A stretch of 40,848 nucleotides of DNA from a virus. Shown piece after piece: positions 1 to 40,848 of this stretch (position 1 is the first letter of the stretch; each line of letters starts with the position of its first letter). The notes below the pieces were generated by a model. The model worked only from the letters and a program-made list of their open reading frames with translations. It searched no databases and was not told where the DNA came from. The translations under genes and the position numbers were made by a program. The stretch is taken from the IMG/VR virus record IMGVR_UViG_3300043609_000024; one strand, given 5' to 3'.

Positions 1-127
1 CCGGGCGTCAGTTCTCGCCCGAGCTTGTTCGCCACCTGATCGGCTTCATTTTGCAGCTTGAGCGCGGCGATGCGTTCGTTTTCCTTGCCGTTGAAAATGT
101 CGCCTTTCCCACCCAGCCGTTTGAATT
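1..127. repeat. Terminal overlap: bases 1-127 are identical to 40722-40848 (circular-assembly overlap)
   Basis: Base-by-base comparison of the two window ends. The overlap lies inside an ORF and preserves its reading frame. Confidence 0.95.
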
Positions 128-13858: not shown

Positions 13859-13893
13859 CTTTGCACTGCCCCTCTCGGAAACCTAGGGTTTGA

Positions 13894-13923
13894 CTAATAG
13901 TGCCGAAACGGCCCTATTGTCAA
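13894..13923 (-). promoter_or_regulatory. Sigma70-like promoter candidate for the packaging/structural operon
   Basis: The minus strand reads TTGACA (13923-13918), an 18-nt spacer, then TATTAG (13899-13894). It lies about 35 nt upstream of the terS ATG. Confidence 0.4.
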
Positions 13924-14310
13924 AACGGTTTAGTCTCGATTTGCAACAAGATACCAAAACGGGACTAGTCCGTTTCGGCCTCGGATTATCCGAAAAACAC
14001 CCGGTTCCATACGTATGATGCATACGACGGAACTTTTAGAAGGCCCTTTGCCGGGCTTTAGAAGAGCCCTGAGGGGCCTTACGATTGGGGGCTCCATATG
14101 CACCCCCTCTCAAATCAAACGCATGGGCGGTGAATTCACGTTCCGTTCTAAAATGCCGTTTTTAGGAATGTAACCCTAGATTTGGATCATAATCCTATAT
14201 CAGAACGGCCCTAAATAAATCGGGGCATGCGGGCCCTGAGGGGTTGACAGCGAGCCCCGGCCAATGAGAAGTCAGGGCTCTTGACCCTACCAACCCGAAA
14301 GGCCCTACCA

Positions 14311-15807
14311 ATGCTTTCCCTGAATACTCAAATCCCCTCGCATGCCCGTGGCACCATTCGCGCCCTTGTTAAGGCCCATACCTCTTGGCCCGCCTATCTC
14401 GTGGAAAAGGGCATCATCTCGGCAAAAGCCCTGAATTCAAACCTCTTGGAATTCGCCCTCAGGCATCCGGCCCTAACGGCCCAAATCGAAACCATCCTAG
14501 GCCAAAGCCCGCAGGGCTCGCAGGTGGATGCCCCCGAAACCCTCATGGATGATGAAACGATGGAAGATGCAGAACCGGCGGCAGCCTCGCAAAGCGTATC
14601 GGCCCCGCATGGCTATGAGCTTGACGGCGTTTTGGCCCCGGTGGAACAACTCATGAGCCCTCTTATGCGGCAGGAACTCGGCAAGGCCCTTGGGCCCGTG
14701 ATCGCGGCAGCCAATAAGGGGCCCGTGGAAATTGAACGCATTGTGGAAATTGAACGCATTGTGGAAGTGGCCCCGGGCGAAATGCCCAAGGCCCGCACGC
14801 TCCCCAAGGCCCGCAGGGACAAGCGGGTTACGGTTCGCACGCTCTTTCCGACACGCAAGCATGACGCTTATCTTGACGCGTCCGTGACGCTTTGGACCGG
14901 TGCGGCAGCCCCGGCCGTTGACCCTCATTACGTCGTGGACCGTAATCAGATGGCGACCATGCTAACCTCTTGGGAAAGAGGCGAAAACGTGTGGTTAGTC
15001 GGGCCGTCCGCGTCGGGTAAATCATCCATGCCGCGCTATGCTGCGGCAGTCACGGGACGGCCCTTTGTCTCAATCGAGATGATGAAGCAAACCGATACGG
15101 AAGCCCTTATTGGCGGAACGGGCTTGGTCAACGGTCAGACCATATGGGTGGATGGTTCGTTCACCCAAGCCCTGCGGCAACCCGGGACCGTGATCTTGAT
15201 CGATGAATTGACGCTGGCCCCTCCTAGCGTGCAGGCGATTATTCAGCATGCGGCCAGCGAGCATAGGTCCTTGACGCTCCCAACCGGTGAAGTGGTTCAC
15301 GCTGCGGACGGCGTGGTTTTCGTGGTCGCCGATAACACGGCCGGAAGCGGGGACGAAGGCGGGCTTTATGCCGGAACCAACGTTAGCAATGTGGCCTTGG
15401 TTACGCGTTTCGCTCGCATGATCCATATGGATTATTTGAGCCCGCAGCGTGAGGCGGAAGCCCTCGCGAACCACACGGGCTGCCCATTACCTGCAGCGCG
15501 GCATTTGGCCGATTGGGTGCAACAAGCAAGGCGCATTCCGACGCTCGCTGGCGTGGTTATCAGCATGCGCCAAATGATCGCCTTGGTTCGCATGATCCAA
15601 GATGGCTTTAGTTCGCAGGACGCCTTCAAGGCCACGCTCTCAAGCCGGATGCCGTCCGTGGAACGCGCGACAATCGACGGGCTGGCCGATCTGGCGTGGA
15701 ACGTGTCTTTTGAAGCCATGGTTCACGGCAAGGACGCAGCCCCGATTGTGACGCCGTCGAATTCGGCGGCAGCCCAAGCATTCGGCGACGCAACGAACCC
15801 TTACTAG
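14311..15807 (+). CDS. cobS: CobS-like / MoxR-class AAA+ ATPase
   Basis: Walker A is VGPSASGKS and Walker B is VILIDELT. The segment ADNTAGSGDEGGLYAGTNVSNVALVTRF matches the CobS signature NTxGxGDxxGxYxGT. The ATG at 14311 is preferred over the TTG at 14281 used by the ORF track. Confidence 0.8.
   Translation: MLSLNTQIPSHARGTIRALVKAHTSWPAYLVEKGIISAKALNSNLLEFALRHPALTAQIETILGQSPQGSQVDAPETLMDDETMEDAEPAAASQSVSAPHGYELDGVLAPVEQLMSPLMRQELGKALGPVIAAANKGPVEIERIVEIERIVEVAPGEMPKARTLPKARRDKRVTVRTLFPTRKHDAYLDASVTLWTGAAAPAVDPHYVVDRNQMATMLTSWERGENVWLVGPSASGKSSMPRYAAAVTGRPFVSIEMMKQTDTEALIGGTGLVNGQTIWVDGSFTQALRQPGTVILIDELTLAPPSVQAIIQHAASEHRSLTLPTGEVVHAADGVVFVVADNTAGSGDEGGLYAGTNVSNVALVTRFARMIHMDYLSPQREAEALANHTGCPLPAARHLADWVQQARRIPTLAGVVISMRQMIALVRMIQDGFSSQDAFKATLSSRMPSVERATIDGLADLAWNVSFEAMVHGKDAAPIVTPSNSAAAQAFGDATNPY
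14725..14766 (+). repeat. In-frame 18-bp tandem repeat (about 2.3 copies) inside the CobS-like gene
   Basis: GTGGAAATTGAACGCATT occurs twice in tandem, followed by GTGGAA. It encodes VEIERI-VEIERI-VE. Confidence 0.9.
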
Positions 15808-15891: not shown

Positions 15892-17757
15892 ATGTCATAT
15901 ACTTATCCGGAAGCTCTGACCGCGCTGGAAAGCGTCGCAAACGATTTTATCAAGGTGCTTCGCCCCCGTGAAATCGCCCGCGTGCTTTTGGTTTGCGATA
16001 GCGCCGCGCAAACGGCGTCCGTGACTTGGGACGCCTATAACATCAAGGTGAACATGCCCGTACGCCCTGCGGCGTCCCGCATGACGCAAGCCGAATTCGA
16101 AAACTGGGTTTCCTATTTGCTTCACGAGTTAGGCCATCCCGCGCATACCGATATGGTGGCGTGGCAGGCGGCATGCCGCGACGGCGTGGCCCGCATGGTC
16201 AACGCGCTGGAAGATGTCCGAATGGAAAAAGCCCTTATCGTTTCAGGCATTGTGCCGAACGCTAAAAGCGTCCTTTCCCGCCTCTTGTCCCGCAAGATTG
16301 TGGAAGCCCGTTCCAATGGCTGGAAACCGAACGCTCGCCGCGAATTCGGGTGGACCATTTGCGTTCTAGGGCGTGCGGCCAATGGTTATGCTTTCGACGG
16401 TTCCGATTTGGCTTGGATCGACGCGCAAATCAAAGCAGGCGGGACGGTTCACGCCGTTTTGGCTTGGGCCTTGCCGGATTTGGCCGCGTGCAAATCGACG
16501 GCCGATTGTACAGCCCTTGCAAAGCGTATCATGGCAGCCCTTGCGGCCCCTCAGGTTGACGGCCCCGGTGGTTTCCCCGGCGAGCAGGGCGAGCAGGGCG
16601 AGCAGGGCGAGCAGGGCGAGAGCGAGCAGGGCGAGAGCGAGAGCGGGGCGCAGCCCCGCGAGGGCGAGGGCGAGGAAGGCCCGCAGGAAGGGCAGGGAGA
16701 GGGCGAGGGCGAGGAAGGCGAGGAAGGCGAGGGCGAGCAGGACGAACGCACGGACGGCCCTCCTAGCGAGACTGAAAGCCCCTCCGGTGAAACCGGAGGT
16801 TCTGAGGGCGAGGAAGGGGGCAAAGGCGGCAAGGGGCAGGGAGATGGAACCTTTGACGCTGATGAAAAGCCCGTGAAAAACGACAAGGACCTGACCGAAC
16901 GGGAACTAGCCCCCGACGATAGCGCCGACGAAAACCTCACGGGCGCGGAAGCGGTCAACGAACGCGTGGTCATCAACATCCTGCGTAGCGGGATTATCGG
17001 CATGAAGCCCAAGGATCAAGGCCATTCGCGCAACGGCCCCAATGCCGAACGCCTCAAGAGCGCGGCAGCCCGTGCTTCCAAACAGCGCGCCCTTTTGGCG
17101 CGGGCTTTGAGGGCTAACGATACCGACGAACGGGAAGGCGGAAAACGCACGGGACGCTTGAACCGTAGCGCGCTGGCCCGCGTCGCCGCAGGTTCGTCAA
17201 CAATCTTTGAACGCCGTGACGTTTGCGAGGGTTTTGATACTGACGTTCACGTCCTGCTAGATGCATCCGGCAGTATGGGCGACGCGGGCAAGATGTCCGC
17301 AGCCCTTGAGGTGGGCTTGATCGTGACGCAAGCGGCAGCCAGCGTCGGGGCGTCCTGCACAACGGAGGTTTTCAATTCCATAGGTTACATCCGGGCCGGG
17401 GCCCTTGCAGGCAAGCGCACGCCTAATCCGGCGGATTTTGGGGTCCTTGTGAACCAAGCGGACGGCGGCACGCCCTTGAGCCCCCATATGGCGCGGGCTG
17501 CCGTGGCCCAAGCGGCACGGGCCCCCGGCAAGCGTCGGGTTCTGTTTTTGGTGACGGACGGGGGCTGCGACTACGGCCAAGAAACCGTCAAGCGAATGGC
17601 GCGGCATCTTGAGAAAACCTGCGGAACCGTGATCGCTCACGTTTCGATTTTCACGGCCCTGCGGGGCTCGTTCAAGGCAGAGGTTCGCGTGGCCCCGGGA
17701 CAAGCCATTGCCGACGTCGGGCTTGACCATTTCGTCCGGGTCCTGCAGGCCCTTTGA
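15892..17757 (+). CDS. cobT: CobT-like VWA-domain protein with an N-terminal HExxH motif and an acidic G/E/Q linker (621 aa)
   Basis: The C-terminal MIDAS motif is DVHVLLDASGSMGD (DxSxS at 17260-17274). The acidic repeat linker spans about aa 230-310. HELGH lies at aa 78-82. The gene is paired with the CobS-like ATPase. Confidence 0.75.
   Translation: MSYTYPEALTALESVANDFIKVLRPREIARVLLVCDSAAQTASVTWDAYNIKVNMPVRPAASRMTQAEFENWVSYLLHELGHPAHTDMVAWQAACRDGVARMVNALEDVRMEKALIVSGIVPNAKSVLSRLLSRKIVEARSNGWKPNARREFGWTICVLGRAANGYAFDGSDLAWIDAQIKAGGTVHAVLAWALPDLAACKSTADCTALAKRIMAALAAPQVDGPGGFPGEQGEQGEQGEQGESEQGESESGAQPREGEGEEGPQEGQGEGEGEEGEEGEGEQDERTDGPPSETESPSGETGGSEGEEGGKGGKGQGDGTFDADEKPVKNDKDLTERELAPDDSADENLTGAEAVNERVVINILRSGIIGMKPKDQGHSRNGPNAERLKSAAARASKQRALLARALRANDTDEREGGKRTGRLNRSALARVAAGSSTIFERRDVCEGFDTDVHVLLDASGSMGDAGKMSAALEVGLIVTQAAASVGASCTTEVFNSIGYIRAGALAGKRTPNPADFGVLVNQADGGTPLSPHMARAAVAQAARAPGKRRVLFLVTDGGCDYGQETVKRMARHLEKTCGTVIAHVSIFTALRGSFKAEVRVAPGQAIADVGLDHFVRVLQAL
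16579..16821 (+). repeat. Coding low-complexity/tandem region (GGCGAGCAG units, GEQ/GE repeats)
   Basis: GEQGEQGEQGEQGESEQGESESG...EGEGEEGPQEGQGEGEGEEGEEGEGEQDE. The 9-bp unit GGCGAGCAG is repeated 4 times at the start. Confidence 0.9.
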
Positions 17758-17795: not shown

Positions 17796-17830
17796 AAGCC
17801 CCGGCCCCGCAAGGTGCCGGGGCTTTTGCT
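17796..17830 (+). terminator. Rho-independent terminator after the CobT-like gene
   Basis: AAGCCCCGGC-N10-GCCGGGGCTT forms a 10-bp perfect stem, running into TTTTGCT. It begins 39 nt after the stop codon. Confidence 0.7.
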
Positions 17831-17953
17831 TGCCCTCCAGAAGCCCTTGGGAAGGCCCGTAGGGAGTTTATTTTGGGCCCCCGCTAGGGAGATGGCCCCC
17901 GGGGCCCTAAACGCACCCCCGGGCTTCCTAGGGCCTTGGAAGCCCTATCAATT

Positions 17954-17969
17954 GTAATGGTACCATTAC
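17954..17969. promoter_or_regulatory. Perfect 16-bp palindrome GTAATGGTACCATTAC (candidate dimeric protein-binding site)
   Basis: Read directly from the sequence. It is AT-rich in a GC-rich context and centred on GGTACC. Confidence 0.5.
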
Positions 17970-18005
17970 GTTTTGGGGCTCGCGACGCGGGCGTGCGCGT
18001 GACGG

Positions 18006-18145
18006 GCGCGGGCCCGCAGGCGCGCAGGCGCGCGGGCGCGCGGGCGCAGGCGCGCGGGCGCAGGCGCGCGGGCGCGCGGGCCCGCAGGCGCGCAGGCGCG
18101 CAGGCGCGCAGGCGCGCGGGCGCGCGGGCGCGCGGGCGCGCGGGC
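18006..18145. repeat. GC-rich tandem array of 18 units (16 octamers GCGC[G/A]GGC or CCGCAGGC, plus 2 hexamers GCAGGC)
   Basis: Hand parsing covers exactly 140 bp. The 8-bp period is incompatible with coding. It lies between convergent operons. Confidence 0.9.
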
Positions 18146-18165
18146 GCGCACGGGGGAAAATCCCT

Positions 18166-18209
18166 TTAAGGATCGACCGGGTTTTCTATTAAGGATCGAC
18201 CGGGTTTTC
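18166..18209. repeat. Perfect 21-bp direct repeat TTAAGGATCGACCGGGTTTTC, two copies at a 23-bp period
   Basis: Copy 2 (18189-18209) is the stop codon plus the last 6 codons of the HTH gene. Copy 1 (18166-18186) lies just downstream of that gene. Confidence 0.9.
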
Positions 18210-18467
18210 CATTACGAGGCCGCCCAGTTCTTCGAGCGGCGCAGTCGCCAGATAATACTCTTTGCGCAGGTGATCCGGCACCGGCCCGTCGAGCCCGTGC
18301 TTCTCGAAGAACGCCATCGAACGCTCACGCCGTCTCTTGGACAGCATCTTGCTGGTCACGGCCCTGACAAGCTGGCGCGAAACACCAAAGTGCCTTCCGA
18401 CCTCGGTGGCACTGAACAGTTTGCTTTCGTACATCTCGGCGACCATTCCGGCAGTCCTATGATCCAT
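18189..18467 (-). CDS. Small HTH DNA-binding protein (92 aa)
   Basis: ATG at 18467 is preceded by GGGGGAGG with a 6-nt spacer. The HTH-like segment is FSATEVGRHFGVSRQLVRAV, followed by the basic stretch KRRRER. Confidence 0.65.
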   Translation of the reverse strand: MDHRTAGMVAEMYESKLFSATEVGRHFGVSRQLVRAVTSKMLSKRRRERSMAFFEKHGLDGPVPDHLRKEYYLATAPLEELGGLVMENPVDP

Positions 18468-18512
18468 TGTAAACCTCCCCCTCGCGTCCACTCCAGCAGC
18501 AGCCCAAATCGG

Positions 18513-18631
18513 GAATGATGTACATGGTGTACACGAAAACCATTCCCGCCATAAGAATGATGTGGTCCTATAATGAGACTAGATTTTTCTTACGCGCGTA
18601 ATGGTTTTCATGTACACCATGTACATCATTC
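18513..18631. repeat. 32-bp inverted repeat (one mismatch) flanking a 55-nt AT-rich spacer
   Basis: GAATGATGTACATGGTGTACACGAAAACCATT (18513-18544) pairs with the reverse complement of 18600-18631. The only difference is 18534 C against 18610 A. Confidence 0.9.
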
Positions 18632-18635
18632 GCCA

Positions 18636-20909
18636 TCAGAATACCTTTTTGGGTTTGGTTTTCAACGCAACACCCTCGATGTACTTTCCATGCCTATCCC
18701 GATCCACCACATACCCGCCCTCTCGGAGTTTGGTCCCCAACTCCTGCGACGTGTGAGGGCCCGTCGCATGGCTCTTGTTGTCTTCCCGAAAAGCCTCCCA
18801 CGTCTTGAAAGCCTCACCAACGTAGACCCTGTCCTTCACCGCCACGCGGCCCCCAACGTCCATAATAAACTCCTTCCGCCACCGCCCAAAAACGTCGGCA
18901 TTGTCGAGATACTCCTCGGTTGCGTCATGGATCGCCCGGCATGCCGGAAGGCCCCCCGCCGCCCAGCCGACCCAGCCGTCCACCATCCACCGCAATATCT
19001 CAGCCTTCTCCCCTCGCAGCTTGTCCACTAGCCCCACATCGACCGCTTTGGGCCGAAACAGCGCGGGTACCAGCCGCATGCGACGTCGAACGCCATCATC
19101 GACCGTATCCAGACGAGGCTTCTCGTTGCCCGCCATGACGATCTTGAACTGCGGCACAAACGTCGTCGGGTCCTGCCGCATGCGGTTTGCCGTAATGGCC
19201 CCACCGCCCGACGCCTGCTTGACCAGCCCCATGTCCCAAGTCGCACCAACAGCCACGTCAGGAACCGTAACCAGACGAGCCCCCTCAAGCACCGCCAGAG
19301 GAGCCAGATGCTTGCCGCCCTTGCTGTCCATGAATACCCGGTGATCCGCCCGCTCATGATAGTCCCCCATCACCTCGCCGATCATGTCCAAAAACACGCT
19401 CTTGCCGTTGCCGCCGGGCCCATAGACAAAGACAACCACATGCTCGCTTGTATGGCCCGACAGGCAATAACCGCAGAACACCTGCCACCAGCGGCGAAGC
19501 TCCGGGTCCTTCTGCGTGAAGTCGTCCAAAAACTTCTCCCAGTATTTTCCCTTTGCGCCTGCCGGTGCGATCTTCGTGGAAGTGCTCCTCGTCACGAAGT
19601 CCTTCGGGGCCCCGGGCCTTCCCGTCACGCCCAGCCCCATCGCGTCCATCTCCAGAACAAAACCCGGCAGCCCCAGAAGATCACGGTTGGCGTCGAACGC
19701 GTCTCGTTCGAGACAGAGCGACGGCCGCAGCCGTACCAGCGAAGCCACAGCATGATGCCAGCCCGCCTTGAGCAGTTGCGCCGTCATCTTCGGGTCCGTC
19801 CCCAGCAGATGCCGACTGATGCTCTCCCGCACCGCCTCGTGAAGCGCCGCCTCGTTCGTCGAGATCACCCAGCGCAGCATCACGGGATCGAACATGGCCC
19901 ATGACCCCGCAGCCCCGTTGATCCACCCCAGACGTCCCCTCTCCGCCCGGGACACGTCGGCAGACATCGACCAGTGCGTGGGATGGGTGGGAAGAGCCCC
20001 AGCCACCGGCGCTGCCGGTGGAGGCGGCGGCGGCGGCGGATCATCGTCGAACACCAGAGATGCAAAACCCTGCGGGTTCGAGCCCTCGGCCCGGGCCCTG
20101 AGACGCCCACCCTTCGACCGCAGCCCGCCGGTCCCAAGGCTATCCCATACCCGCCGCGTCTCCTCGGCGTCGTAGCTCGCATGTCCCGCCGACCACTCGT
20201 CGAACACCACCAGCCCGTCGGCATCGTTCTCGCAAAGCGCCTTGAGCCCGTGGGCCACTTCGATCCACTCGCCCCTGTCGTCGAGATCGTTGGGTATAAG
20301 AGCCATCAGGGCCCGCAGCTTTTTGATATCCATGTCCCCGCCGCCGACGCTCCCTGCCGTGCTTGACCGCGCCACCTGCACCGGATCGACGGTCGCAGGG
20401 TCCATCGCGAGCCCCTGTATCGCCTCGGCCAGCCGCACCTTAAAACCGCCCCGGCCTTTCTTGGTGTTCACGCCCATCGGAAGCCGGAACAGATGCACCG
20501 CGTCGCGACCCTCCAGCTTGGTGCCCACGAGAAACTCCACCGAAGCGAAGAACCGCGCCCAGTCCGCCACCGGGACCGCAGGGTCCAGCCGGTAGACCCA
20601 TTGGTAGTTGCCTGCCGACGTTTCGACGACAGCCGTCGGGGCTCCGATGGCCCCCAGCACGGCGGGCCCTTTGACCTTCGTGCCGACGTCGTCGATCACT
20701 AGGGCTCGAACTTCCAAGGCTTTATCGGTGGTGCGCGAGAGGTGTCCTCGATCAAAAGCCGCCACGCTCCAGTAGCAATCGCGCGTGCCGTCCAGAGCAG
20801 TATAATCGCGCGTAGCTGCAGGCGGATGAAGGTTGGCGAAAATAGCGTGTTCCGCATGGTCAGGAAAAACCGCTTGGAGGAACCGCGAGGCCTCTGTATG
20901 GTTAGCCAT
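18636..20909 (-). CDS. Bifunctional primase-polymerase / D5-P4-type helicase (757 aa)
   Basis: The N-terminal prim-pol motifs are LVIDDVG and VVETSAGNYQWVYRL. A PriCT-like segment reads EWIEVAHGLKAL...FDEWS. A poly-Pro linker follows. The helicase Walker A is VYGPGGNGKS. AAGGA lies 8 nt before the ATG. Confidence 0.85.
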   Translation of the reverse strand: MANHTEASRFLQAVFPDHAEHAIFANLHPPAATRDYTALDGTRDCYWSVAAFDRGHLSRTTDKALEVRALVIDDVGTKVKGPAVLGAIGAPTAVVETSAGNYQWVYRLDPAVPVADWARFFASVEFLVGTKLEGRDAVHLFRLPMGVNTKKGRGGFKVRLAEAIQGLAMDPATVDPVQVARSSTAGSVGGGDMDIKKLRALMALIPNDLDDRGEWIEVAHGLKALCENDADGLVVFDEWSAGHASYDAEETRRVWDSLGTGGLRSKGGRLRARAEGSNPQGFASLVFDDDPPPPPPPPAAPVAGALPTHPTHWSMSADVSRAERGRLGWINGAAGSWAMFDPVMLRWVISTNEAALHEAVRESISRHLLGTDPKMTAQLLKAGWHHAVASLVRLRPSLCLERDAFDANRDLLGLPGFVLEMDAMGLGVTGRPGAPKDFVTRSTSTKIAPAGAKGKYWEKFLDDFTQKDPELRRWWQVFCGYCLSGHTSEHVVVFVYGPGGNGKSVFLDMIGEVMGDYHERADHRVFMDSKGGKHLAPLAVLEGARLVTVPDVAVGATWDMGLVKQASGGGAITANRMRQDPTTFVPQFKIVMAGNEKPRLDTVDDGVRRRMRLVPALFRPKAVDVGLVDKLRGEKAEILRWMVDGWVGWAAGGLPACRAIHDATEEYLDNADVFGRWRKEFIMDVGGRVAVKDRVYVGEAFKTWEAFREDNKSHATGPHTSQELGTKLREGGYVVDRDRHGKYIEGVALKTKPKKVF

Positions 20910-28669: not shown

Positions 28670-29031
28670 TGTCGAACATTCCCGAAAGGCCCCACCCGGG
28701 TGAACTGCTCTCCCTCGCGTTCGAGGTTATCAACGCGAGGGGAAGCGACTACGACAACGTCAGCGATATCGAGCAAAACTTCAGGGAGGCTGCCGCCGTG
28801 GCGTCTGTTGTTATCGGAAAGCCCTTGACCCCGCGCGACGTCGCGATGGTCTTGGCCGTCGTCAAACTGATACGGTCCAAAAGCAGCCCGGAGAAGATCG
28901 ACAACTACGTTGACGGAATGAACTATCTGGCGTTCGCGGCTTGTTTCCAAGGGCTCGTGCCGATGCCGCCTCTCGGGGCCCGGGCCCCGGTCAAGCAGAC
29001 GGTGGTCCCGCTCAAGGAAGTCGCCGAATGA
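28669..29031 (+). CDS. DUF6378-like conserved phage protein (120 aa)
   Basis: The pattern RGSDYDN...F...A......G..LTPRDVAMVLAVVKLIRSK......D...DGMNYLAFAA matches my recollection of that family. TGATG coupling to the upstream gene. Confidence 0.6.
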   Translation: MSNIPERPHPGELLSLAFEVINARGSDYDNVSDIEQNFREAAAVASVVIGKPLTPRDVAMVLAVVKLIRSKSSPEKIDNYVDGMNYLAFAACFQGLVPMPPLGARAPVKQTVVPLKEVAE

Positions 29032-31338: not shown

Positions 31339-33236
31339 TTTGGCTCCACCTCGAAGTAGCCTTCCAGTTCACGGACCCGGGCCCTGAGGGCTTTAAGCTC
31401 CTGCAGGATCACCGGCACATACTTCGAGTAGTCCACGCCCCAGAACTCGGGCCCGGCCTCGCTCTCTTCGTTATGGACGATGGCTGCCGGGTAGACCTCG
31501 ACGGCCTGCTGCGCGATCACGCCATAGGAGCGTTCCTTGGTGGACCGCCACGCGAAATCGTAGACGTTGGTCTGTTCGATGATGTTGCCCGCGTCGAAGC
31601 TGCGCAGGTCTTCCTTCAGTTCGGCGCTGGAGGCGGTGGCGTAGGTCACGGCGGTCGGGGACTGGGTAATCTGGCCCACGGAGCCGTTGGACGTGTTTAC
31701 GAACGCTATCGCGGTGGTGGTATCCGCAGCGGGCCTGAAGCCCATGCCGTACTGAATAGCACCACCAGCGAAGGTGATGTGAGCAGCAGCGTTGTATGGA
31801 TCGAGGCCGCTGATGCCGACGTTCAGGCCGGGAACACTAACAAAACCGCCGAGGAAATTGAACTTGCCGACCTCGTAGGAGAGGTAATTGCTGCCCGCGC
31901 TGCCGAAGCGGTAGACGCCGTCGGTGGTGCTGCCGCCCATCCACTGCTTGATGCCGTCGGCAGCGATAGTGGCGTGTGCCACTCCTGCAAAGGTGCGGAA
32001 GTTCGTCGCGGTGGCGGCGTCGATGTAGTTGTTGCCGGTGCCGTTGTTATCGATGATGAGACTGCCATACGATCCGGTCACAGCGAGCGGTGTGACCCCC
32101 GCAGGCACGGTGATGGAGGCACCGCCCGTCATGATCACGGCACCTCCGGAGAACTGGAAGTTGGTACCGTTATAAGTCAAGTACTTGGTGCCGGTGTTAC
32201 CGAAGTAGTAGCTGCCGGTAGTCGGTGCCCCAGTCACTGTGCTGACGAAATTGGCGGTCGAGATGATGCCGGGAGCGTAGAGCGCACCTCCGCCAAACTG
32301 AAAGTTGGTGCCGTCAAAAGACAGGTACTTGGTGCCGGTATTGCCGAAGTAGTAACTGCCGGTGGTCGGTGTCGCGGTCACTGAGCTTATGAAATTGCCG
32401 GTCGAGATGATGCCGGGCGCGGTCAGCGTCCCGGTCATGGTGTCGCCAGCCTTCGCCACCCGCGAGGTGTCGCTGGGGTGGCGGTGGTCGCCGCGTGCGT
32501 AGAGTAGCGCCGTTCCCGGCGCGGCGGTGCCATCCATCAGCGGCGCGGCATCGCTGGGCACTTGTGGATCGCCCTTGACGCCCTGCACGCCCTGAATGCC
32601 CTGCGGCCCCTGCGAGCCGGTTGCGCCGGTATCGCCCTTGACGCCCTGCAAGCCCTGCGGCCCCTGCGCGCCGGTCGCCCCCGTCGCGCCGGGCGTACCC
32701 GCCGCACCCGTATCGCCCTTGACGCCTTGAGGGCCCGGCAAGCCGGGATCGCCTTGCGCGCCGGTTGCACCCGTTGCACCCGTTGCGCCGGGCGTGCCTT
32801 GGAGACCCTGCACACCGGGGTCGCCTTTCGGGCCTTGAGCACCGGTTGCGCCCGTGGCACCGGCAGGGCCCGTTGCGCCCGTGTCGCCCTTCGGGCCTTG
32901 CGCGCCCGTGGCTCCCGTGGGTCCCGGCGGCCCTTGGATGGGACCGGCGTTGATCCACGCCGAGGTATCGGCATCCCATACCCAGAGATCACCAGTCGCG
33001 GTGACGACGTAGGCGTCACCCTCGACGTTGCCTGTCGGCGGCAGCGAGCCGACGTTTGGCACCTGACCTTTGAGGTTGATGCCGGTGCCAGCCGACCCCT
33101 GCGGCCCGGCCGGACCCACCGGCCCCTGCACCCCGGTTGACCCTGTCGGCCCGGCAGGACCTGTCGGGCCCGGCGGCCCGGCGAGAGCGAGGTCCTGCCA
33201 GCCTTCGGAGGTGCGAACGCGAACGGCGTAGTTCAT
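31335..33236 (-). CDS. Collagen-like tail fibre with C-terminal intramolecular chaperone (Peptidase_S74) domain (633 aa)
   Basis: Long G-X-Y runs. An internal ~47-aa duplication ([46 protein letters not shown], two copies). The C-terminus [12 protein letters not shown]...[13 protein letters not shown]...[19 protein letters not shown] is typical of the S74 chaperone. The ATG at 33236 overlaps the upstream stop (ATGA). Confidence 0.85.
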
Positions 33237-33655: not shown

Positions 33656-35230
33656 TCACAGGCTCGCAATCTGGTTCGCGCCTATAGCTGCCGTTATGGC
33701 CCCCGGCCAAATACAAAGTTCAGTAATCCATCCGGTAAACGGCTCGGGGACGGCACTCAGGCCAAAGAAAAGCTGGCCTCCAAAATCACCGCTGCCGACA
33801 TTCTGGTTAGGTGTGTCCGCGCCACTGGGCGACGCGACAGATGCAATGTTGATGTGGCTGGAAGCACCATTGTAGACGCATTGCGTGGCGTACCATGTGT
33901 TCATATTGGCGGTGCCAAATTGCAACGTACCGCCGCCCGCATGCAGATAGAACGTGGCCGTATTGCCGGTGTAGCCAAAACGCGGAATGAGCGAAGTGCC
34001 GCAGAATATTCCGTTCGGTACACCACCGGCTGTTTGCGCTGTCTGGCGAGAGACAACAGACGCGGTAAATGGCTGCGCAAAAGCAGGGAGGGCTATCTGT
34101 GGTCTCGTCGGGAGTGACCCGTCAAAGACAAGCGCCGCGCGTCCAGCAGTCAGTCCTGTCGGACTGATAATAATGCGAGGCAACTGACCATTAACGCCAT
34201 ACGTCATGTCGCTGCCTGTCGCCAGCTGATCATACCAGAGCTGTACGACTGCGGTGCCGTGCGCCGCGATCCACGCATTCAGCGCGGCGTAATCCAGCAG
34301 TCCGCTTGGAAGAATAAAGATGTCTGTCGCGAAGTTGAAGCTGTTGTCGCAAATCTTCATCGCCTTGGTCGTTCCGGTCATCTGCGCGGCGCTGTAGGCA
34401 CGCAAACCGTAGAAACAAATGGCTCCCGGCAGAATGTCGCCCGGCCCCTGATAGGCCGGGGCACCGGCAATCGGTCCCACCGCCGTTGATGTGGCGCTGG
34501 CACTGCCCGCGCCATTGGTGGCGGTGACTGTGACGGTAATCATCGCGGAAAGATCGGCAGTCACCAGCAGATATGTACCTGCCGTAGCGCCGCTGATGAC
34601 GGTGCCGCCGCGCTTCCACTGATAGGTGTAGGACGGCGATCCGCTCCACGTCCCGCTGCTGGCGGTCAGTGTCGAACCAACCTGCACCGTGCCGGAAATG
34701 CCGGGCAGCGCGGTATTGGCAGGTGGCGTCTCCGCATCCCAGCGGTACATCTTGTTGGTGTCTTTCGCGACGTAGATCGAGGCAACCACGCCCGTCGCCG
34801 GGAACGACGCGAGATTGGCGTATTCGAAAACTTCGGTAGCGCCGCCACTGCCGACCGATGGCGCAAGCTCGTCGGTGTCCACCCACAGCGCGCCGATCTC
34901 GACGCTGCCGGGGTCGTTCGGCTGCTCGTAGACCTCAACCTGCCCCTCGGGGCCGACGGGGCCGGTAGCGCCGGGAGCCCCGGTGGCACCCGTCGCACCC
35001 GTGGGGCCCGAGGGCCCGGGATTGCCCTGCACGCCCTGAACGCCTTGGGAACCGGTGTCGCCCTTGACGCCTTGGGCACCCGTTGCGCCGGTATCGCCTT
35101 TGACGCCTTGGACGCCTTGCGCGCCGGTATCGCCCTTCGGGCCCTGCGGCCCCGGCACGGAACTGGCGGCACCCGGGTCGCCTTTCGGCCCGGGAGGTCC
35201 CTTGATGTTGGTTTCAAGCCCCCAAGCCAT
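33656..35230 (-). CDS. Collagen-like tail fibre / receptor-binding candidate with an Ig-like repeat and a lectin-like C-terminus (524 aa)
   Basis: The N-terminal ~100 aa are G-X-Y repeats ([10 protein letters not shown]...). The Ig-like segment is [63 protein letters not shown]. Confidence 0.75.
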
Positions 35231-38719: not shown

Positions 38720-40044
38720 CAGCGTGCCGTCCCTGTTCGCCCGTCAGGCAGCTTGAACCGCGTGCCCGGGGAGAGCTTCAGGGCGTCAGCCTCGGAAGCG
38801 GCGTTCACCACTTCTCCACCGGCAGGTGCAGGCGCGGCCCCGGATGAAGGCGCGATCTGAGTGGTGTCGCCACCGACTTTTCTGACGGCGCGTTCTTCGA
38901 TTTCGCGGTCGCGCTTCGCTGCCGCCAGCACGTCGCCGAACGCCGCGCGCTTGGTTTCCATCGAGATGTTCGGGTTGTTGTACATCGCGATGAATTTCTT
39001 CATCTCGAAGTCGGTGGACTGGCCTTTCAGGATGTTGGACATCGCCCCGGTGGCGACCTTGTTCATGGTATTGTCGAACTCGGTGGTGCGCTGGGCCTTT
39101 TCCTTGTCGCCGAGGTAATTGCCGACGAGCGGGGCATTGCCAAGTGCGGTCTGGCCCCCTGCTGAAGGCCCCGTGAAAATGCCCTTGTCGAGCGCCTCTT
39201 GGGCCCGTCCAAGCTCGTTGACCATCAGGTTCTTCTGGGTGAGTTGCTGCTCCAGTTCCGCCACCGCCTTGGCCTTGACGGGGTCGGCAGCGGCGGCAGC
39301 CACGGTGGCGTCGGCCGTCAGCTTGGCGTTGCGCTCCCGGCTGGCGCGGTCTTCCGTGGCGGTATCCGCCCCGATGTCCTGTCCCCGAACCGTGATGTCC
39401 TGCCCTCGGGCCGCAGTGTTTGCTCCGATATCCTGCCCCCTAACGTCGATGTCCTGACCACGGGCTGCGGTGTTTGCCGTCATGTCCTGACCACGAGTTG
39501 CGGTCTGCGCCCCGATGTCCTGACCACGGGCTGTTATGTCCTGACCCCGGGCGTCGATGTCCTGACCACGGGTTGCGGTGCTTGCCGTTATGTCCTGACC
39601 ACGGGCCGTTACGTCCTGACCACGGGTTGTGGTCTGCGCGGTGATGTCCTGCCCCCGGTTTGTCGATGCGATCTGTGCCGCCGCCCGGCGGTTCTCCGCC
39701 AAGGTCGAGAGCGCCTGCCGGGCGAGTTCGGGGTCGGCGGAGTTGATGATCGCTACCTGCTGCGAGGTCGGGCCCTTCTCCCAATCGACGCCCGCCATTA
39801 CCCGCGCCAGCGTCTCCTTCTGCGCCGCGAGGGCTTGATCGGCGCGCCCCTGCTGCATGCGGTCGCCGACAACGCCGAGAACATGACCGATACCGCCCGG
39901 GATGGTCGCCATCATAGCGGCATCGGGCTTCTCCGCCGCCTGCTGCGCCAGCAAGTCCTTCTGCCGCTGCTCCAGCGCCTTGATGGTCATCGCCTTCATC
40001 GGGTCGCTGTAGCCCGACGTGGTGGTGGATGCGAAAATTGCCAT
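38719..40044 (-). CDS. Internal virion/ejection protein candidate with an RGQD repeat array (441 aa)
   Basis: Eleven RGQD[IVM]xx units of alternating 7 and 11 aa at residues 130-230. Lies directly downstream of the transglycosylase-like gene. Confidence 0.6.
   Translation of the reverse strand: MAIFASTTTSGYSDPMKAMTIKALEQRQKDLLAQQAAEKPDAAMMATIPGGIGHVLGVVGDRMQQGRADQALAAQKETLARVMAGVDWEKGPTSQQVAIINSADPELARQALSTLAENRRAAAQIASTNRGQDITAQTTTRGQDVTARGQDITASTATRGQDIDARGQDITARGQDIGAQTATRGQDMTANTAARGQDIDVRGQDIGANTAARGQDITVRGQDIGADTATEDRASRERNAKLTADATVAAAAADPVKAKAVAELEQQLTQKNLMVNELGRAQEALDKGIFTGPSAGGQTALGNAPLVGNYLGDKEKAQRTTEFDNTMNKVATGAMSNILKGQSTDFEMKKFIAMYNNPNISMETKRAAFGDVLAAAKRDREIEERAVRKVGGDTTQIAPSSGAAPAPAGGEVVNAASEADALKLSPGTRFKLPDGRTGTAR
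39355..39657 (-). repeat. Coding tandem repeat (21-nt and 33-nt units) encoding the RGQD array
   Basis: RGQDITAQTTT RGQDVTA RGQDITASTAT RGQDIDA RGQDITA RGQDIGAQTAT RGQDMTANTAA RGQDIDV RGQDIGANTAA RGQDITV RGQDIGADTAT. Confidence 0.9.
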
Positions 40045-40045
40045 C

Positions 40046-40848
40046 TCAGTACAACTTTCTGCTGTTCAGTCGTTGCAACGCCATAGCCAATTGCTGCCGC
40101 TGCGCCTCGGCTATCCGGGGATCGACGACAGGCTGAATACCCGGCGGCATCGGCAGGGACGCTGACGGAAGGTTGGCAGGGCCCGAGGCCCGGGCCGCGT
40201 TCTGGGCCACCGGGCCCTTGGCGAAGAGTTCGCCGAGGCCCGAAAATGCGTCTCCCGCGATCTCCTGCTTGGACTTCGTTTTATCGCCTGCCACTTCAGC
40301 CAATGCCCCCTTGTTCGGTTCGCCGCCGCCCGCCTCGGCGATGTTCGCTTGGGTTTCAGCGGCGGGGCTCGCAGGGCTCGCAGGGCTCGCGGTGTTCCCC
40401 TCCGGATCGTCCAAGGGGTTGGGCACGACGGTGGCGGCAGGTTGAACGACGCTCGCGGTGTCCGCACCGCCCTGCCCCATGCCGCGCAGGACGCGAGCAT
40501 TCCACATTTTGGCGAATTCGCCGCTGGTGAGGTTCTCGACGGAGCCGTAGCGGGCCTTATCCTTGTCAGGGACGTTGCCCCAGATCGCCAGCCGGGACCA
40601 ACCTTCGCCCTTGTTGCGGCCTTCACCCGTCGCGTGCATGGACTGCCACGCCGGACGATCCGGCTTGGTGATGTGTTCGTAGGAGCCGCCGACGCCCTGC
40701 TGGTGCACGAGGTAGATTTCGCCGGGCGTCAGTTCTCGCCCGAGCTTGTTCGCCACCTGATCGGCTTCATTTTGCAGCTTGAGCGCGGCGATGCGTTCGT
40801 TTTCCTTGCCGTTGAAAATGTCGCCTTTCCCACCCAGCCGTTTGAATT
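40046..40848 (-). CDS. C-terminal part of the transglycosylase-like virion protein (same gene as 1..317)
   Basis: No in-frame stop from 40848 down to the TGA at 40046-40048. The sequence ...TPGEIYLVHQQGVGG... continues the muramidase-like N-domain. The C-terminal half is A/P/G-rich. The ORF-track start at 40756 is an internal codon. Confidence 0.8.
   Translation of the reverse strand, partial: FKRLGGKGDIFNGKENERIAALKLQNEADQVANKLGRELTPGEIYLVHQQGVGGSYEHITKPDRPAWQSMHATGEGRNKGEGWSRLAIWGNVPDKDKARYGSVENLTSGEFAKMWNARVLRGMGQGGADTASVVQPAATVVPNPLDDPEGNTASPASPASPAAETQANIAEAGGGEPNKGALAEVAGDKTKSKQEIAGDAFSGLGELFAKGPVAQNAARASGPANLPSASLPMPPGIQPVVDPRIAEAQRQQLAMALQRLNSRKLY
40722..40848. repeat. Second copy of the 127-bp terminal overlap
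   Basis: Identical to bases 1-127. Confidence 0.95.

What the first reader, a model, noticed from the sequence alone, without database searches (positions are those of the whole stretch)
18006..18156. GC-rich octamer tandem array with G-quadruplex and Z-DNA potential at a convergent operon junction
Eighteen head-to-tail units cover exactly 140 bp: GCGCGGGC, GCGCAGGC, CCGCAGGC and two truncated GCAGGC units. There is higher-order structure, since the trio GCGCGGGC-CCGCAGGC-GCGCAGGC recurs at 18006 and 18074. The 8-bp period excludes coding, so the Arg/Ala ORFs 17936..18169 and 17966..18151 are artefacts. At 18118-18144 four G3 tracts are separated by 5-nt CGCGC loops, with a G5 run at 18152, which satisfies the G3N1-7 quadruplex pattern. 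The alternating GCGC runs and the GCGGGCCCGC palindromes (18007, 18075) could form Z-DNA or cruciforms. The array sits between the terminator of the plus-strand module and the 3' end of the minus-strand replication operon. Candidate roles are a replication or packaging landmark, a polymerase roadblock between convergent transcripts, or a hypervariable VNTR.
Basis: seen in the sequence. Interest (0 to 1): 0.65.

Follow-up and report, generated by a model that had tools for sequence, protein, structure and literature searches.

The report
Hypervariable GC-rich repeat beside phage origin
A real, non-coding, fast-changing run of GC-rich 8-base repeats sits at a fixed place next to the probable replication origin of an uncultured 40-kb phage lineage; it is kept for its bulk physical properties and not for a G-quadruplex, and its exact job is still unproven.

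Summary
Positions 18006-18150 hold 18 head-to-tail units (140 bp) plus a partial unit. The tract is 94.5% G+C, and lag-8 autocorrelation is 0.88 against 0.46 in shuffles.

The window is a circularly assembled 40,721-bp phage genome. The array is non-coding and is a true VNTR: an assembly with zero SNPs over 10 kb has 17 units instead of 18.

Fifteen related phage lineages carry an array at the same place. The shared order is: CobT-like gene, terminator, 107-bp conserved block, array, 2-5 sequence-specific iterons, optional small ORF, large stem-loop palindrome, primase-helicase stop codon.

Unit sequence and length turn over completely between relatives (6, 8, 9, 14 and 16 bp). What persists is 82-94% G+C, 107-245 bp, mostly single-phase purine/pyrimidine alternation, and A>>T strand asymmetry.

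- G-quadruplex motifs occur in only 4 of 14 arrays.
- Hairpin potential equals that of shuffles.
- More distant relatives with an equally conserved terminase and the same palindrome lack the array, so it is accessory.

Best guess (about 0.35): a sequence-nonspecific, hard-to-melt, Z-DNA-prone origin-flanking barrier or topology element. Rivals are a tolerated slippage product, a protein-binding array, and a packaging or terminal element. Function is untested and the host is unknown.

The parts
15892..17757 (+). CobT-like protein (HExxH N-terminal region, acidic repeat linker, C-terminal VWA/MIDAS domain). It is the last gene of the plus-strand AAA_5 (MoxR-like, 14281-15807) / VWA cassette that converges on the array.
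   Evidence: Its 3' end is 66-72% nt identical in array-bearing relatives.
17796..17830 (+). Intrinsic terminator of the plus-strand cassette (GC hairpin plus T-run).
   Evidence: (I6). The hairpin is kept with compensatory changes in 7 relatives.
17841..17947 (.). Single-copy, sequence-conserved non-coding block (consensus ...GGGAAGGCCCGTGAGGGGTTTAT...CCCCCGCTAGGGTGATGGCCC...CAAAACGCAC...AGGGCCC...).
   Evidence: Alignment A4. nhmmer finds one strong hit per genome (E 1e-24 to 1e-27). It is 77-87% nt identical, against 66-72% for the adjacent coding DNA. No RNA covariation. It is inverted in L119.
17954..17969 (.). Perfect 16-bp palindrome GTAATGGTACCATTAC. It is specific to this genome and not conserved in relatives.
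17977..18005 (.). Degenerate GC-rich lead-in to the array (GGCTCGCGACGCGGGCGTGCGCGTGACGG). Relatives share a (C)GTCGCGCGCG-type left boundary.
   Evidence: (D1).
18006..18150 (.). The GC-rich octamer array: 18 units (140 bp) plus a partial unit. 94% G+C, with G and A enriched on the + strand.
   Evidence: VNTR allele with 17 units in L103.
18166..18211 (.). Two 23-bp direct iterons, TTAAGGATCGACCGGGTTTTC(T/C)A. The core (T)AAGGATCGACC is conserved in window, L002, L003, L109 (x3), L114 (x2) and L119 (x5 at 13-bp spacing). Other clades carry different iterons at the same place.
18189..18467 (-). Small 92-aa ORF with a weak sigma-70 region-4-like helix-turn-helix. Its stop codon overlaps iteron 2. 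It is present in only some relatives.
18508..18636 (.). 129-bp imperfect palindrome with 60-nt arms, each carrying two 9-bp (A/G)TGTACA-type repeats around an AT-richer centre, directly after the primase stop codon. Probable replication origin.
   Evidence: I1. (-39.3 kcal/mol, z = -9.5). An equivalent element with clade-specific 9-mers is present in all relatives, including those without the array. The experimental precedent is pRN1 (PMC4234260).
18636..20909 (-). Primase-helicase (RepB-type/AEP primase, PriCT_2, D5_N, DUF5906 SF3 helicase).

Best explanation
SHOWN. The array is a genuine, non-coding, rapidly evolving GC-rich minisatellite. It is a fixed component of a roughly 800-bp composite cis-acting region. 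That region lies between the 3' end of the primase-helicase gene and a convergent MoxR/CobT-like cassette, in a lineage of uncultured ~40-kb phages. The order of parts is: terminator, conserved block, array, sequence-specific iterons, optional small ORF, large stem-loop palindrome, primase stop codon.

INFERRED. The palindrome is the replication origin, of the pRN1/BIP-1 type: a stem-loop immediately 3' of an AEP-primase/SF3-helicase gene. The iterons bind a conserved sequence-specific protein.

PROPOSED MECHANISM. The array works through bulk physical properties and not through its exact sequence. It is a 107-245-bp tract of 82-94% G+C, built mostly of in-phase alternating purine/pyrimidine steps. 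It is therefore the hardest DNA in the genome to melt. By a rough estimate it can also flip to left-handed Z-DNA at a superhelical density of about -0.03. Placed beside the AT-richer iterons and the origin, it would do three things:
- confine unwinding to the origin side;
- buffer superhelical stress;
- act as a barrier to replication forks and to read-through from the replication operon at the convergent junction.

Replication slippage continually remodels unit sequence and copy number, while selection keeps the tract long, GC-rich and alternating. The element is accessory and not essential, because related phages do without it.
For: Position and architecture:
- The position and the order of parts are conserved in 15 lineages.
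- Adjacent coding DNA is only 66-72% nt identical, yet no CobT-bearing relative has lost the array.

Sequence turnover with retained bulk properties:
- Unit sequence and period turn over completely.
- G+C stays at 82-94% and length at 107-245 bp.
- Single-phase RY match is 84-93% in 12 of 14 arrays (shuffles reach at most 0.71).
- A>>T on the same strand in 13 of 14 arrays.

Variation and composition:
- One 8-bp unit differs on a background of 0 SNPs in 10.3 kb.
- The array is the G+C extreme of the genome: 94.5% against at most 80% elsewhere.

Z-DNA estimate:
- Cost about 0.62 kcal/mol per bp, critical sigma about -0.033 in a 40.7-kb circle. This is similar to (CA)n and far below random GC sequence (energy parameters recalled from memory).

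Origin context:
- A stem-loop with z = -9.5 lies directly after the primase gene and is present in every relative.
- This matches the experimentally defined pRN1 origin and the arrangement proposed for phage BIP-1 (PMC4234260).
- The 23-bp iteron spacing equals two helical turns.

Independent occurrence:
- An unrelated 49-kb phage carries short inverted arrays of the same octamer immediately after a DUF3987 helicase gene.
- It is one of only four viral contigs in the collection with three exact tandem copies.
Against: - No experiment and no read-level data support any function. The origin assignment is by analogy only.
- The distance from the array/iteron module to the palindrome varies from about 50 to more than 500 bp, because ORFs are inserted between them. 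That is unusual for parts of a single origin.
- Relatives L032, L033 and L039 have the palindrome but no iterons or array, so the array is dispensable.
- L114 uses 9-bp units that break the single-phase alternation (0.52), and L110 reaches only 0.73.
- Alternation is partly an automatic by-product of GCGC-based repeats.
- A convergent junction accumulates positive supercoiling, not negative, which disfavours Z-DNA.
- The cumulative GC-skew maximum at 18204 would mark a terminus, not an origin, under the bacterial convention.
- The Z-DNA energetics use parameters recalled from memory.
Confidence: 0.35

Rival explanations
1. A tolerated slippage product with no function of its own. A GC-rich seed (the shared ...GTCGCGCGCG... 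boundary) in a gene-free convergent gap keeps expanding and contracting by replication slippage, and it persists because it is harmless.
For: - VNTR behaviour: 17 versus 18 units with zero SNPs.
- Complete turnover of units between relatives, and mixed variants within arrays.
- No designed secondary structure.
- The array is dispensable in L032, L033 and L039.
- A second VNTR in the CobT acidic linker varies in the same assemblies.
- The A>>T asymmetry could be strand-biased deamination and need not reflect selection.
Against: - The array is retained in all 15 CobT-bearing lineages although the flanking coding DNA has diverged by about 30% at the nucleotide level.
- Phage genomes are compact and deletion-prone, and arrays contract easily, yet none is shorter than 107 bp.
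- Orientation and strand asymmetry are kept.
- It always lies between two constrained elements, the block and the iterons.
Confidence: 0.25
2. A protein-binding array. Each 8-bp unit would be a site for a small DNA-binding protein that coats the tract. Precedents are the contiguous 8-bp MetJ boxes, the 7-bp omega heptads of pSM19035, ParR-type centromeres, and the octamer iterons of phage P4. The array would then serve partition, copy control (handcuffing) or repression.
For: - Contiguous 7-8-bp repeats are the geometry used by ribbon-helix-helix proteins (established knowledge, recalled from memory).
- Arrays are fairly homogeneous within some genomes (L036, L038, L111).
- A CGCA/GCAG-type core recurs in most unit types.
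- The same octamer occurs next to an unrelated helicase gene in L118.
- Sequence-specific iterons and a small HTH ORF lie alongside.
Against: - Units differ in sequence and length (6, 8, 9, 14, 16 bp) between close relatives whose flanks are 89-96% identical (L109, L110, L115).
- The 6-bp units shift the register inside the window's own array.
- No partition ATPase or RHH protein was identified among the ORFs scanned. The scan was not exhaustive.
- The small HTH ORF is absent from several array-bearing relatives.
- The octamer is not enriched elsewhere in the genome.
Confidence: 0.2
3. A packaging or terminal element. The block, array and iterons together would be the pac/cos region or the boundary of a direct terminal repeat. 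Comparable cases are the short-repeat arrays SRL/SRR that flank the T7 terminal repeat, and the GC-rich DR2 reiterations between pac1 and pac2 in the herpes simplex 'a' sequence.
For: - A unique, strongly conserved block plus direct repeats resembles terminase-binding sites.
- The module is separable from the palindrome.
- The cumulative GC-skew maximum falls at 18204.
- Many contigs end inside the array from either side: L035, L038, L107, L110, L111, L115 and five Logan contigs.
Against: - The contig ends are explained by assembly. Five Logan contigs stop at the identical base, where four identical units exceed k = 31. Perfect arrays longer than k cannot be resolved.
- Three full-length assemblies read through the array and break at arbitrary places: a 127-nt k-mer overlap in the window, about 13312 in L103, and about 21912 in L104.
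- The module is 5 kb from the terminase gene, with another cassette in between.
- Array-less L032 and L033 have an equally conserved TerL, 88% against 89-91% in array-bearing genomes.
- The block is inverted in L119.
Confidence: 0.12
4. A G-quadruplex-forming regulatory element on the G-rich strand.
For: One canonical G3N5G3N5G3N5G3 motif at 18118-18144, plus a G5 run. The G4Hunter maximum is 1.4.
Against: - The motif is present in only 4 of 14 related arrays on this strand. Most units have no G3 run. L110 and L111 are C-rich on this strand.
- The genome holds 17 such motifs and 465 windows with |G4Hunter| above 1.2.
- The complementary strand and GC duplex stability compete strongly.
Confidence: 0.03

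Closest known systems
GC-rich segments next to the iterons of plasmid origins (RSF1010/IncQ oriV; also P1 oriR and RK2 oriV)
   Same: - Direct iterons spaced about two helical turns apart, with a GC-rich stretch beside them.
- A nearby inverted repeat used by an AEP-type primase. RepB' primes on the 40-nt inverted repeats ssiA and ssiB (PMC8567376).
- The window's primase gives a weak RepB_primase hit plus a PriCT_2 hit.
   Different: - Those GC-rich stretches are about 30-60 bp of unique sequence (recalled from memory, not checked here). They are not 107-245-bp tandem arrays and are not hypervariable.
- Here the distance to the palindrome varies.
- No separate RepC-like iteron-binding protein has been identified.
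Stem-loop origin downstream of the AEP-primase/SF3-helicase gene (plasmid pRN1; proposed for Bordetella phage BIP-1)
   Same: A stem-loop of about 100-130 nt lies immediately 3' of a primase-helicase gene. Its structure is conserved, its sequence varies between relatives, and it is flanked by conserved sequences of unknown auxiliary role (PMC4234260).
   Different: This comparison applies to the neighbouring palindrome (18508-18636) and not to the array. pRN1 has no GC-rich tandem array or iterons.
Octamer 'type I' iterons of satellite phage P4 ori/crr, bound by the alpha primase-helicase
   Same: 8-bp repeats close to a primase-helicase gene, serving replication (recalled from memory; P4 is discussed in PMC4234260).
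   Different: P4 octamers have a fixed sequence (TGTTCACC), are dispersed and lie in both orientations. Here the units are head-to-tail, in one orientation, and change sequence and length between relatives.
GC-rich reiterations at packaging junctions: DR2 arrays in the herpes simplex 'a' sequence, and SRL/SRR arrays flanking the T7 terminal repeat
   Same: Short tandem repeats of variable copy number, embedded between conserved unique cis elements in a double-stranded DNA virus with a terminase. Their function is still unclear (recalled from memory).
   Different: There is no evidence that this locus is at a genome end. Assemblies read through it, and array-less relatives have the same terminase.
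Bacterial intergenic VNTRs / minisatellites, and (CG)n or (CA)n Z-DNA-forming microsatellites
   Same: Slippage-driven copy-number change on an otherwise identical background. In-phase purine/pyrimidine alternation.
   Different: The position is conserved over about 30% flank divergence, always inside a conserved cis region next to a replication gene. One out-of-alternation base pair per unit makes it a weaker Z-former than (CG)n.

Membership tests
VNTR / minisatellite | Head-to-tail tandem units | tested here: met
   TRF period 8, 18.6 copies. Lag-8 autocorrelation 0.876, with 0 of 2000 shuffles reaching it.
VNTR / minisatellite | Copy number differs between otherwise near-identical genomes | tested here: met
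   L103 has 17 units against 18 in the window, L104, L105 and L123, with 0 mismatches over 10.3 kb.
G-quadruplex-forming element | At least four G3 tracts with 1-7-nt loops | tested here: met
   One match at 18118-18144.
G-quadruplex-forming element | Motif conserved where the element is conserved | tested here: not met
   Present in 4 of 14 related arrays on this strand. Two arrays carry it only on the other strand.
G-quadruplex-forming element | Quadruplex forms in vitro (CD, K+-dependent melting) | not testable with these tools
   Needs oligonucleotide biophysics.
Z-DNA-forming tract | Long in-phase alternating purine/pyrimidine sequence rich in CG or CA steps | tested here: inconclusive
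   A single-phase RY pattern fits 86% of positions in the window and 84-93% in 12 of 14 arrays, against at most 0.71 in shuffles. There is one out-of-alternation pair per unit, and L114 (0.52) and L110 (0.73) fail. Estimated critical sigma is about -0.033, using parameters recalled from memory.
Z-DNA-forming tract | B-to-Z transition under negative supercoiling | not testable with these tools
   Needs 2D gels, chemical probing or antibody binding.
Cruciform / designed hairpin (including REP/BIME-like elements) | Single-strand folding better than composition predicts; dispersed multi-copy palindromic units | tested here: not met
   -79.8 kcal/mol, but z = -0.28 against dinucleotide shuffles. 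The octamers are at chance frequency elsewhere in the genome.
Iteron-type replication origin | Several direct repeats of about 17-24 bp, spaced about two helical turns, next to a replication gene | tested here: met
   2 x 23 bp at 18166-18211. Relatives have 2-5.5 copies, and the core is conserved in six lineages. This concerns the neighbouring iterons, not the array.
Iteron-type replication origin | Initiator binding and origin firing at the site | not testable with these tools
   Needs EMSA or footprinting and origin mapping.
pRN1/BIP-1-type stem-loop origin | Large stem-loop immediately 3' of an AEP-primase/SF3-helicase gene, with structure conserved among relatives | tested here: met
   Stem-loop at 18508-18636, z = -9.5. 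Equivalent palindromes with clade-specific 9-mers occur in all relatives. Domains are and the precedent is PMC4234260. This concerns the palindrome, not the array.
P4-type octamer iterons | Fixed octamer sequence, dispersed and in both orientations, recognised by the primase-helicase C-terminal domain | tested here: not met
   Units are contiguous, in one orientation, and not conserved in sequence or length.
Terminal-repeat or pac-associated arrays (T7 SRL/SRR, HSV DR2) | Located at or next to the physical genome ends or the terminase cleavage site | not testable with these tools
   No reads were available. Circumstantial evidence is against it: arbitrary contig break points and read-through, k-mer-explained contig ends, and TerL equally conserved in array-less relatives.
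CRISPR array | 24-48-bp repeats separated by unique spacers | tested here: not met
   Units of 6-8 bp with no spacers.
Protein-coding repeat | Reading frame maintained within the array and among relatives | tested here: not met
   6-bp units inside the array, an 8-bp indel between identical genomes, and periods of 6, 8, 9, 14 and 16 bp in relatives.
Structured RNA (Rfam families, tRNA) | Match to a covariance model, or covariation | tested here: not met
   Only sub-threshold miRNA-hairpin hits on the palindrome. No tRNA. The covariation term is about 0 for the flanking block.

The most novel reading that the evidence does not exclude
The array is a natural supercoil-sensing B-Z switch, or 'topological capacitor', beside a phage replication origin. 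Selection would keep a long, in-phase alternating GC tract poised at physiological superhelical density, so that its B-to-Z flip (about 26 turns absorbed) gates origin opening or fork passage. Slippage would tune its length within populations. This would be the first functional Z-DNA element described in a bacteriophage.
Probability: 0.08. Interest if true: 0.75.

Novelty: new variant of a known kind. Interest (0 to 1): 0.45.

Why it matters
- If the array is selected for bulk physical properties, it is a clear natural example of a cis element whose function is independent of sequence. It would link DNA mechanics (melting resistance, Z-DNA, supercoil buffering) to phage replication control.
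- It defines a compact, easily recognised origin-region signature (block, GC array, iterons, stem-loop) for a widespread but uncultured soil phage lineage.
- It explains why assemblies of these phages break at this point.
- It offers a ready strain-level VNTR marker.
- If it is merely tolerated slippage DNA, it is ordinary.

Tried and rejected
- Coding: rejected because of frame-breaking units and indels.
- Cruciform or hairpin design: z = -0.28.
- Conserved G-quadruplex: present in 4 of 14 arrays.
- Known RNA families or tRNA: none. No covariation in the flanking block.
- Chi-like or dispersed host-recognised octamer: the units occur at chance frequency and without strand bias elsewhere in the genome.
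- Cultured relatives that might have mapped genome ends: no megablast hit. Protein hits are all below 45% identity.
- Host identification or prophage copies in 185,579 species genomes: only one unrelated fragment.
- Contig ends inside the array as evidence of physical termini: rejected as k-mer artefacts.
- GC skew as an origin/terminus marker: the maximum is at 18204 and the minimum at 28716, but it is confounded by gene content and opposite to the bacterial convention for an origin, so I left it as ambiguous.
- sigma-70 promoter scan: nothing convincing in the block or iterons.
- Exact-protein look-ups of the small ORF with wrong start codons and of the 621-aa CobT-like protein found nothing.
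- L113, where only the last 71 aa of the primase plus the cis region match L002: it could be a mosaic or an assembly chimera and gave no Pfam hits, so I did not use it.
Full report
**What the window is.** The first and last 127 nt are identical. The window is therefore a circularly assembled genome of 40,721 bp at about 62% G+C. It encodes:
- a T4-type large terminase, a portal, a major head protein and other virion proteins on the minus strand;
- a replication set made of a family A DNA polymerase, a primase-helicase (RepB-type/AEP primase, PriCT_2, D5_N and DUF5906 SF3 helicase domains), a RuvC-like resolvase, an SNF2 helicase, a DUF2800 PD-(D/E)XK nuclease and an Enc34-type SSB;
- a plus-strand cassette of an AAA_5 (MoxR-like) ATPase and a CobT-like HExxH/VWA protein.

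No tRNA and no integrase (among the ORFs scanned) were found. There is no close cultured relative: megablast found nothing, and the best protein identities in the phage collection are 35-43%. A scan of 185,579 species genomes gave no prophage copy and no host.

**The observation.** Tandem Repeats Finder reports 18006-18150, period 8, 18.6 copies, consensus GCGCAGGC. The recurring trio, the G3-N5 x4 run at 18118-18144 and the G5 run at 18152 are all there. The decamer palindromes start at 18008 and 18076, one base later than stated.

The tract is 94.5% G+C, and no other 145-nt window in the genome exceeds 80%. Lag-8 autocorrelation is 0.876, against 0.458 +/- 0.052 in dinucleotide-preserving shuffles of the array itself (0 of 2000). 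The raw TRF score is not exceptional once the extreme dinucleotide content is granted. The anomaly is the composition together with the strict period.

**It is non-coding and a true VNTR.** The two 6-bp units break any reading frame. Contigs from other samples encode the identical 757-aa primase, and they were compared with the window:
- L103 differs over 10.3 kb by zero substitutions and two indels. One indel is the loss of a single 8-bp unit (17 units instead of 18). The other is 9 bp; L104 also carries a 9-bp indel. I did not locate it; it probably lies in the 9-bp acidic-linker repeat of the CobT-like gene.
- L104, L105 and L123 carry the 18-unit allele.

**Relatives.** Relatives came from four kinds of scan: the primase protein, the iteron core, the conserved block and exact array words. 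Fifteen distinct lineages carry an array at the same position: the window, L002, L003, L030, L035, L036, L037, L038, L040, L109, L110, L111, L114, L115 and L119.

In window orientation the shared architecture is:
1. stop codon of the CobT-like gene;
2. intrinsic terminator;
3. a block of about 107 bp conserved in sequence;
4. the GC-rich array;
5. 2-5.5 direct iterons;
6. an optional small ORF, different in different relatives;
7. a large imperfect palindrome built from clade-specific 9-bp repeats;
8. the primase stop codon.

**What varies and what is kept in the array.**

Variable features:
- Units include GCGCAGGC, GCGCGGGC, GCAGGC, GCACACGC with GCGGGCCC, CGCACGCC, GGCGCGCGT (9 bp), and 14-16-bp units.
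- L109, L110 and L115 have flanks 89-96% identical but quite different arrays.

Retained features:
- Complete arrays are 107-245 bp long.
- G+C is 82-94%.
- A single-phase purine/pyrimidine alternation fits 84-93% of positions in 12 of 14 arrays. Shuffles average 0.53 and never exceed 0.71. The exceptions are L114 (9-bp units, 0.52) and L110 (0.73).
- A strongly outnumbers T on the window's plus strand in 13 of 14 arrays.

Structural readings tested:
- The G3N1-7 x4 pattern occurs on that strand in only 4 of 14 arrays, and two arrays are C-rich there. In the window it is one of 17 such motifs in the genome. The quadruplex idea is therefore not supported as a lineage-wide function.
- Single-strand folding of the array (-79.8 kcal/mol) is no better than that of its shuffles (z = -0.28). 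There is no designed hairpin or cruciform.
- A rough B-Z calculation uses dinucleotide energies recalled from memory. It gives about 0.62 kcal/mol per bp and a critical superhelical density near -0.033 in a 40.7-kb circle. That is like (CA)n, weaker than (CG)n and far easier than random GC sequence.

**The neighbours.**
- *Block (17841-17947).* It is single-copy per genome. It is 77-87% identical between relatives, while the adjacent coding sequence is only 66-72% identical. It shows no RNA covariation, so it is a DNA-level element. In L119 it is inverted relative to the array and iterons.
- *Iterons (2 x 23 bp at 18166-18211).* The core (T)AAGGATCGACC is identical in six lineages, with 2, 3 or 5 copies. 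Other clades have different iterons at the same place. This is the signature of a sequence-specific binding protein.
- *Palindrome (18508-18636).* It folds far better than shuffles (z = -9.5). An equivalent element follows the primase gene in every relative, including L032, L033 and L039. Those three lack the iterons and the array and show no CobT-like sequence in the DNA held (L033 and L039 checked); L033 has at most a weak block-like match (E = 0.12).
- *Precedent.* In plasmid pRN1 the origin was shown experimentally to be a ~100-bp stem-loop directly downstream of the AEP-primase/SF3-helicase gene. The same arrangement was proposed for phage BIP-1 (PMC4234260). RepB' of RSF1010 primes on inverted repeats within oriV (PMC8567376). 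By analogy the palindrome is the probable origin, and the array lies 50 to more than 500 bp from it.

**Evidence bearing on function.**
- *Against a packaging or terminal role.* Three full-length assemblies read through the array and break at unrelated places. The many contigs that end inside the array are explained by repeats longer than the assembler's k: five Logan contigs stop at the same base, where four identical units begin. The terminase is equally conserved in array-less genomes (88%) and array-bearing genomes (89-91%). The locus is 5 kb from the terminase gene.
- *For a replication-linked role.* The array is close to the primase-helicase gene, the stem-loop and the iterons. Only four viral contigs in the collection hold three exact GCGCAGGC units in tandem. 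Three are family members. The fourth is an unrelated 49-kb phage in which short inverted arrays of the same octamer lie immediately after a DUF3987 helicase gene.
- *For selection and against pure drift.* No CobT-bearing lineage has lost the array despite about 30% nucleotide divergence of the flanks.
- *Against an essential role.* Array-less relatives exist.
- *Against a sequence-specific protein array.* Units turn over between close relatives, there are register shifts within arrays, and the octamers occur at chance frequency elsewhere in the genome.
- *Ambiguous.* The cumulative GC-skew maximum coincides with the junction (18204).

**Conclusion.** Three things are established. The array is real and non-coding. 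It is a hypervariable minisatellite. Its position is conserved inside a composite cis region next to the probable origin of an uncultured phage lineage.

My preferred mechanism (about 0.35) is a sequence-nonspecific physical element. It would be a very stable, Z-DNA-prone GC tract that bounds origin opening, buffers supercoiling, and blocks forks or read-through at the convergent junction, while slippage continually remodels it.

The rivals are:

| Rival | Confidence |
|---|---|
| Tolerated slippage by-product | 0.25 |
| Protein-coated repeat array | 0.20 |
| Packaging or terminal element | 0.12 |
| G-quadruplex | 0.03 |

None can be settled without reads, biophysics or genetics. The decisive tests are listed separately.

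Noticed in passing
window 1-127 and 40722-40848: An exact 127-nt terminal overlap, typical of a k = 127 circular assembly. The true genome length is 40,721 bp. Other assemblies of the same phage break at unrelated positions.
   Followed up: yes
window 18508-18636: A 129-bp imperfect palindrome directly after the primase stop codon (z = -9.5). Each arm carries two 9-bp repeats. An equivalent element with clade-specific 9-mers is present in all relatives, including those without the array. It is the probable pRN1/BIP-1-type origin.
   Followed up: partly
window 17841-17947: A single-copy non-coding block that is more conserved (77-87% nt) than the adjacent coding DNA (66-72%). No RNA covariation. 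It is inverted in relative L119. Function unknown.
   Followed up: partly
window 16579-16732: 9-bp and 6-bp tandem repeats encoding the Gly/Glu-rich acidic linker of the CobT-like protein. A 9-bp indel that separates otherwise identical assemblies (L103 and L104 versus the window) probably lies here, which would make it a second VNTR; its exact position was not located. Relatives have TCGCCC- or CTCGCCCTG-type arrays at the same place.
   Followed up: partly
window 14228-14250, and the start of the block near 17850: The motif GGGCCCTGAGGGGTT, fused at 14232 to a TTGACA -35-like hexamer, recurs at the start of the conserved block and in intergenic regions of distant relatives (L032, L033, L039). 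It is possibly a lineage-specific promoter or operator motif.
   Followed up: partly
L118 6965-7260 (IMGVR_UViG_3300045977_000284): An unrelated 49-kb phage has short arrays of the same octamer (GCGCAGGC/TGCGCGCC) in inverted orientation immediately after a DUF3987 helicase gene. They flank two copies of GGACTTACGTCG.
   Followed up: partly
L113 6112-7636 (Ga0207701_10014560): The contig is 100% identical to L002 from the last 71 codons of the primase through the palindrome, iterons, array and block. Upstream it is unrelated. The 71 residues end a stand-alone 133-aa ORF. This is either a mosaic that carries the primase C-terminal domain together with its cis sites, or an assembly chimera.
   Followed up: partly
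window 18189-18467 (-): A 92-aa ORF with a weak sigma-70 region-4-like HTH. Its stop codon overlaps the second iteron. Homologous ORFs sit at the same place in L037 and L114, but other relatives have different ORFs or none.
   Followed up: partly
window 14725-14766: A perfect 18-bp tandem repeat (2.3 copies) inside the AAA_5 ATPase gene. Similar 18-bp repeats occur at the equivalent place in L002, L030 and L037.
   Followed up: no
window 32140-32421, 32568-32926, 35016-35153, 39368-39658: A 144-bp tandem duplication, collagen-like 9-bp (Gly-X-Y) repeats, and 54-bp and 108-bp repeats in the large minus-strand ORFs that are probably tail fibre or spike genes.
   Followed up: no
window 13859-14280: An AT-richer divergent intergenic region between the late (terminase) operon and the AAA/CobT cassette. 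It has several AAACGG-containing inverted repeats and a CGTATG..CATACG palindrome, and is a likely regulatory region. It is also the more conventional place to look for a pac or cos site.
   Followed up: no
window whole genome: Cumulative GC skew has its maximum at 18204 (the array junction) and its minimum at 28716 (the other convergent junction). It does not follow gene strand.
   Followed up: partly
loci L131-L210: The large terminase is 87-93% identical across dozens of soil and rhizosphere viral contigs, while primases of the same genomes are only 37-66% identical. The replication module is therefore much more mosaic than the structural module.
   Followed up: no
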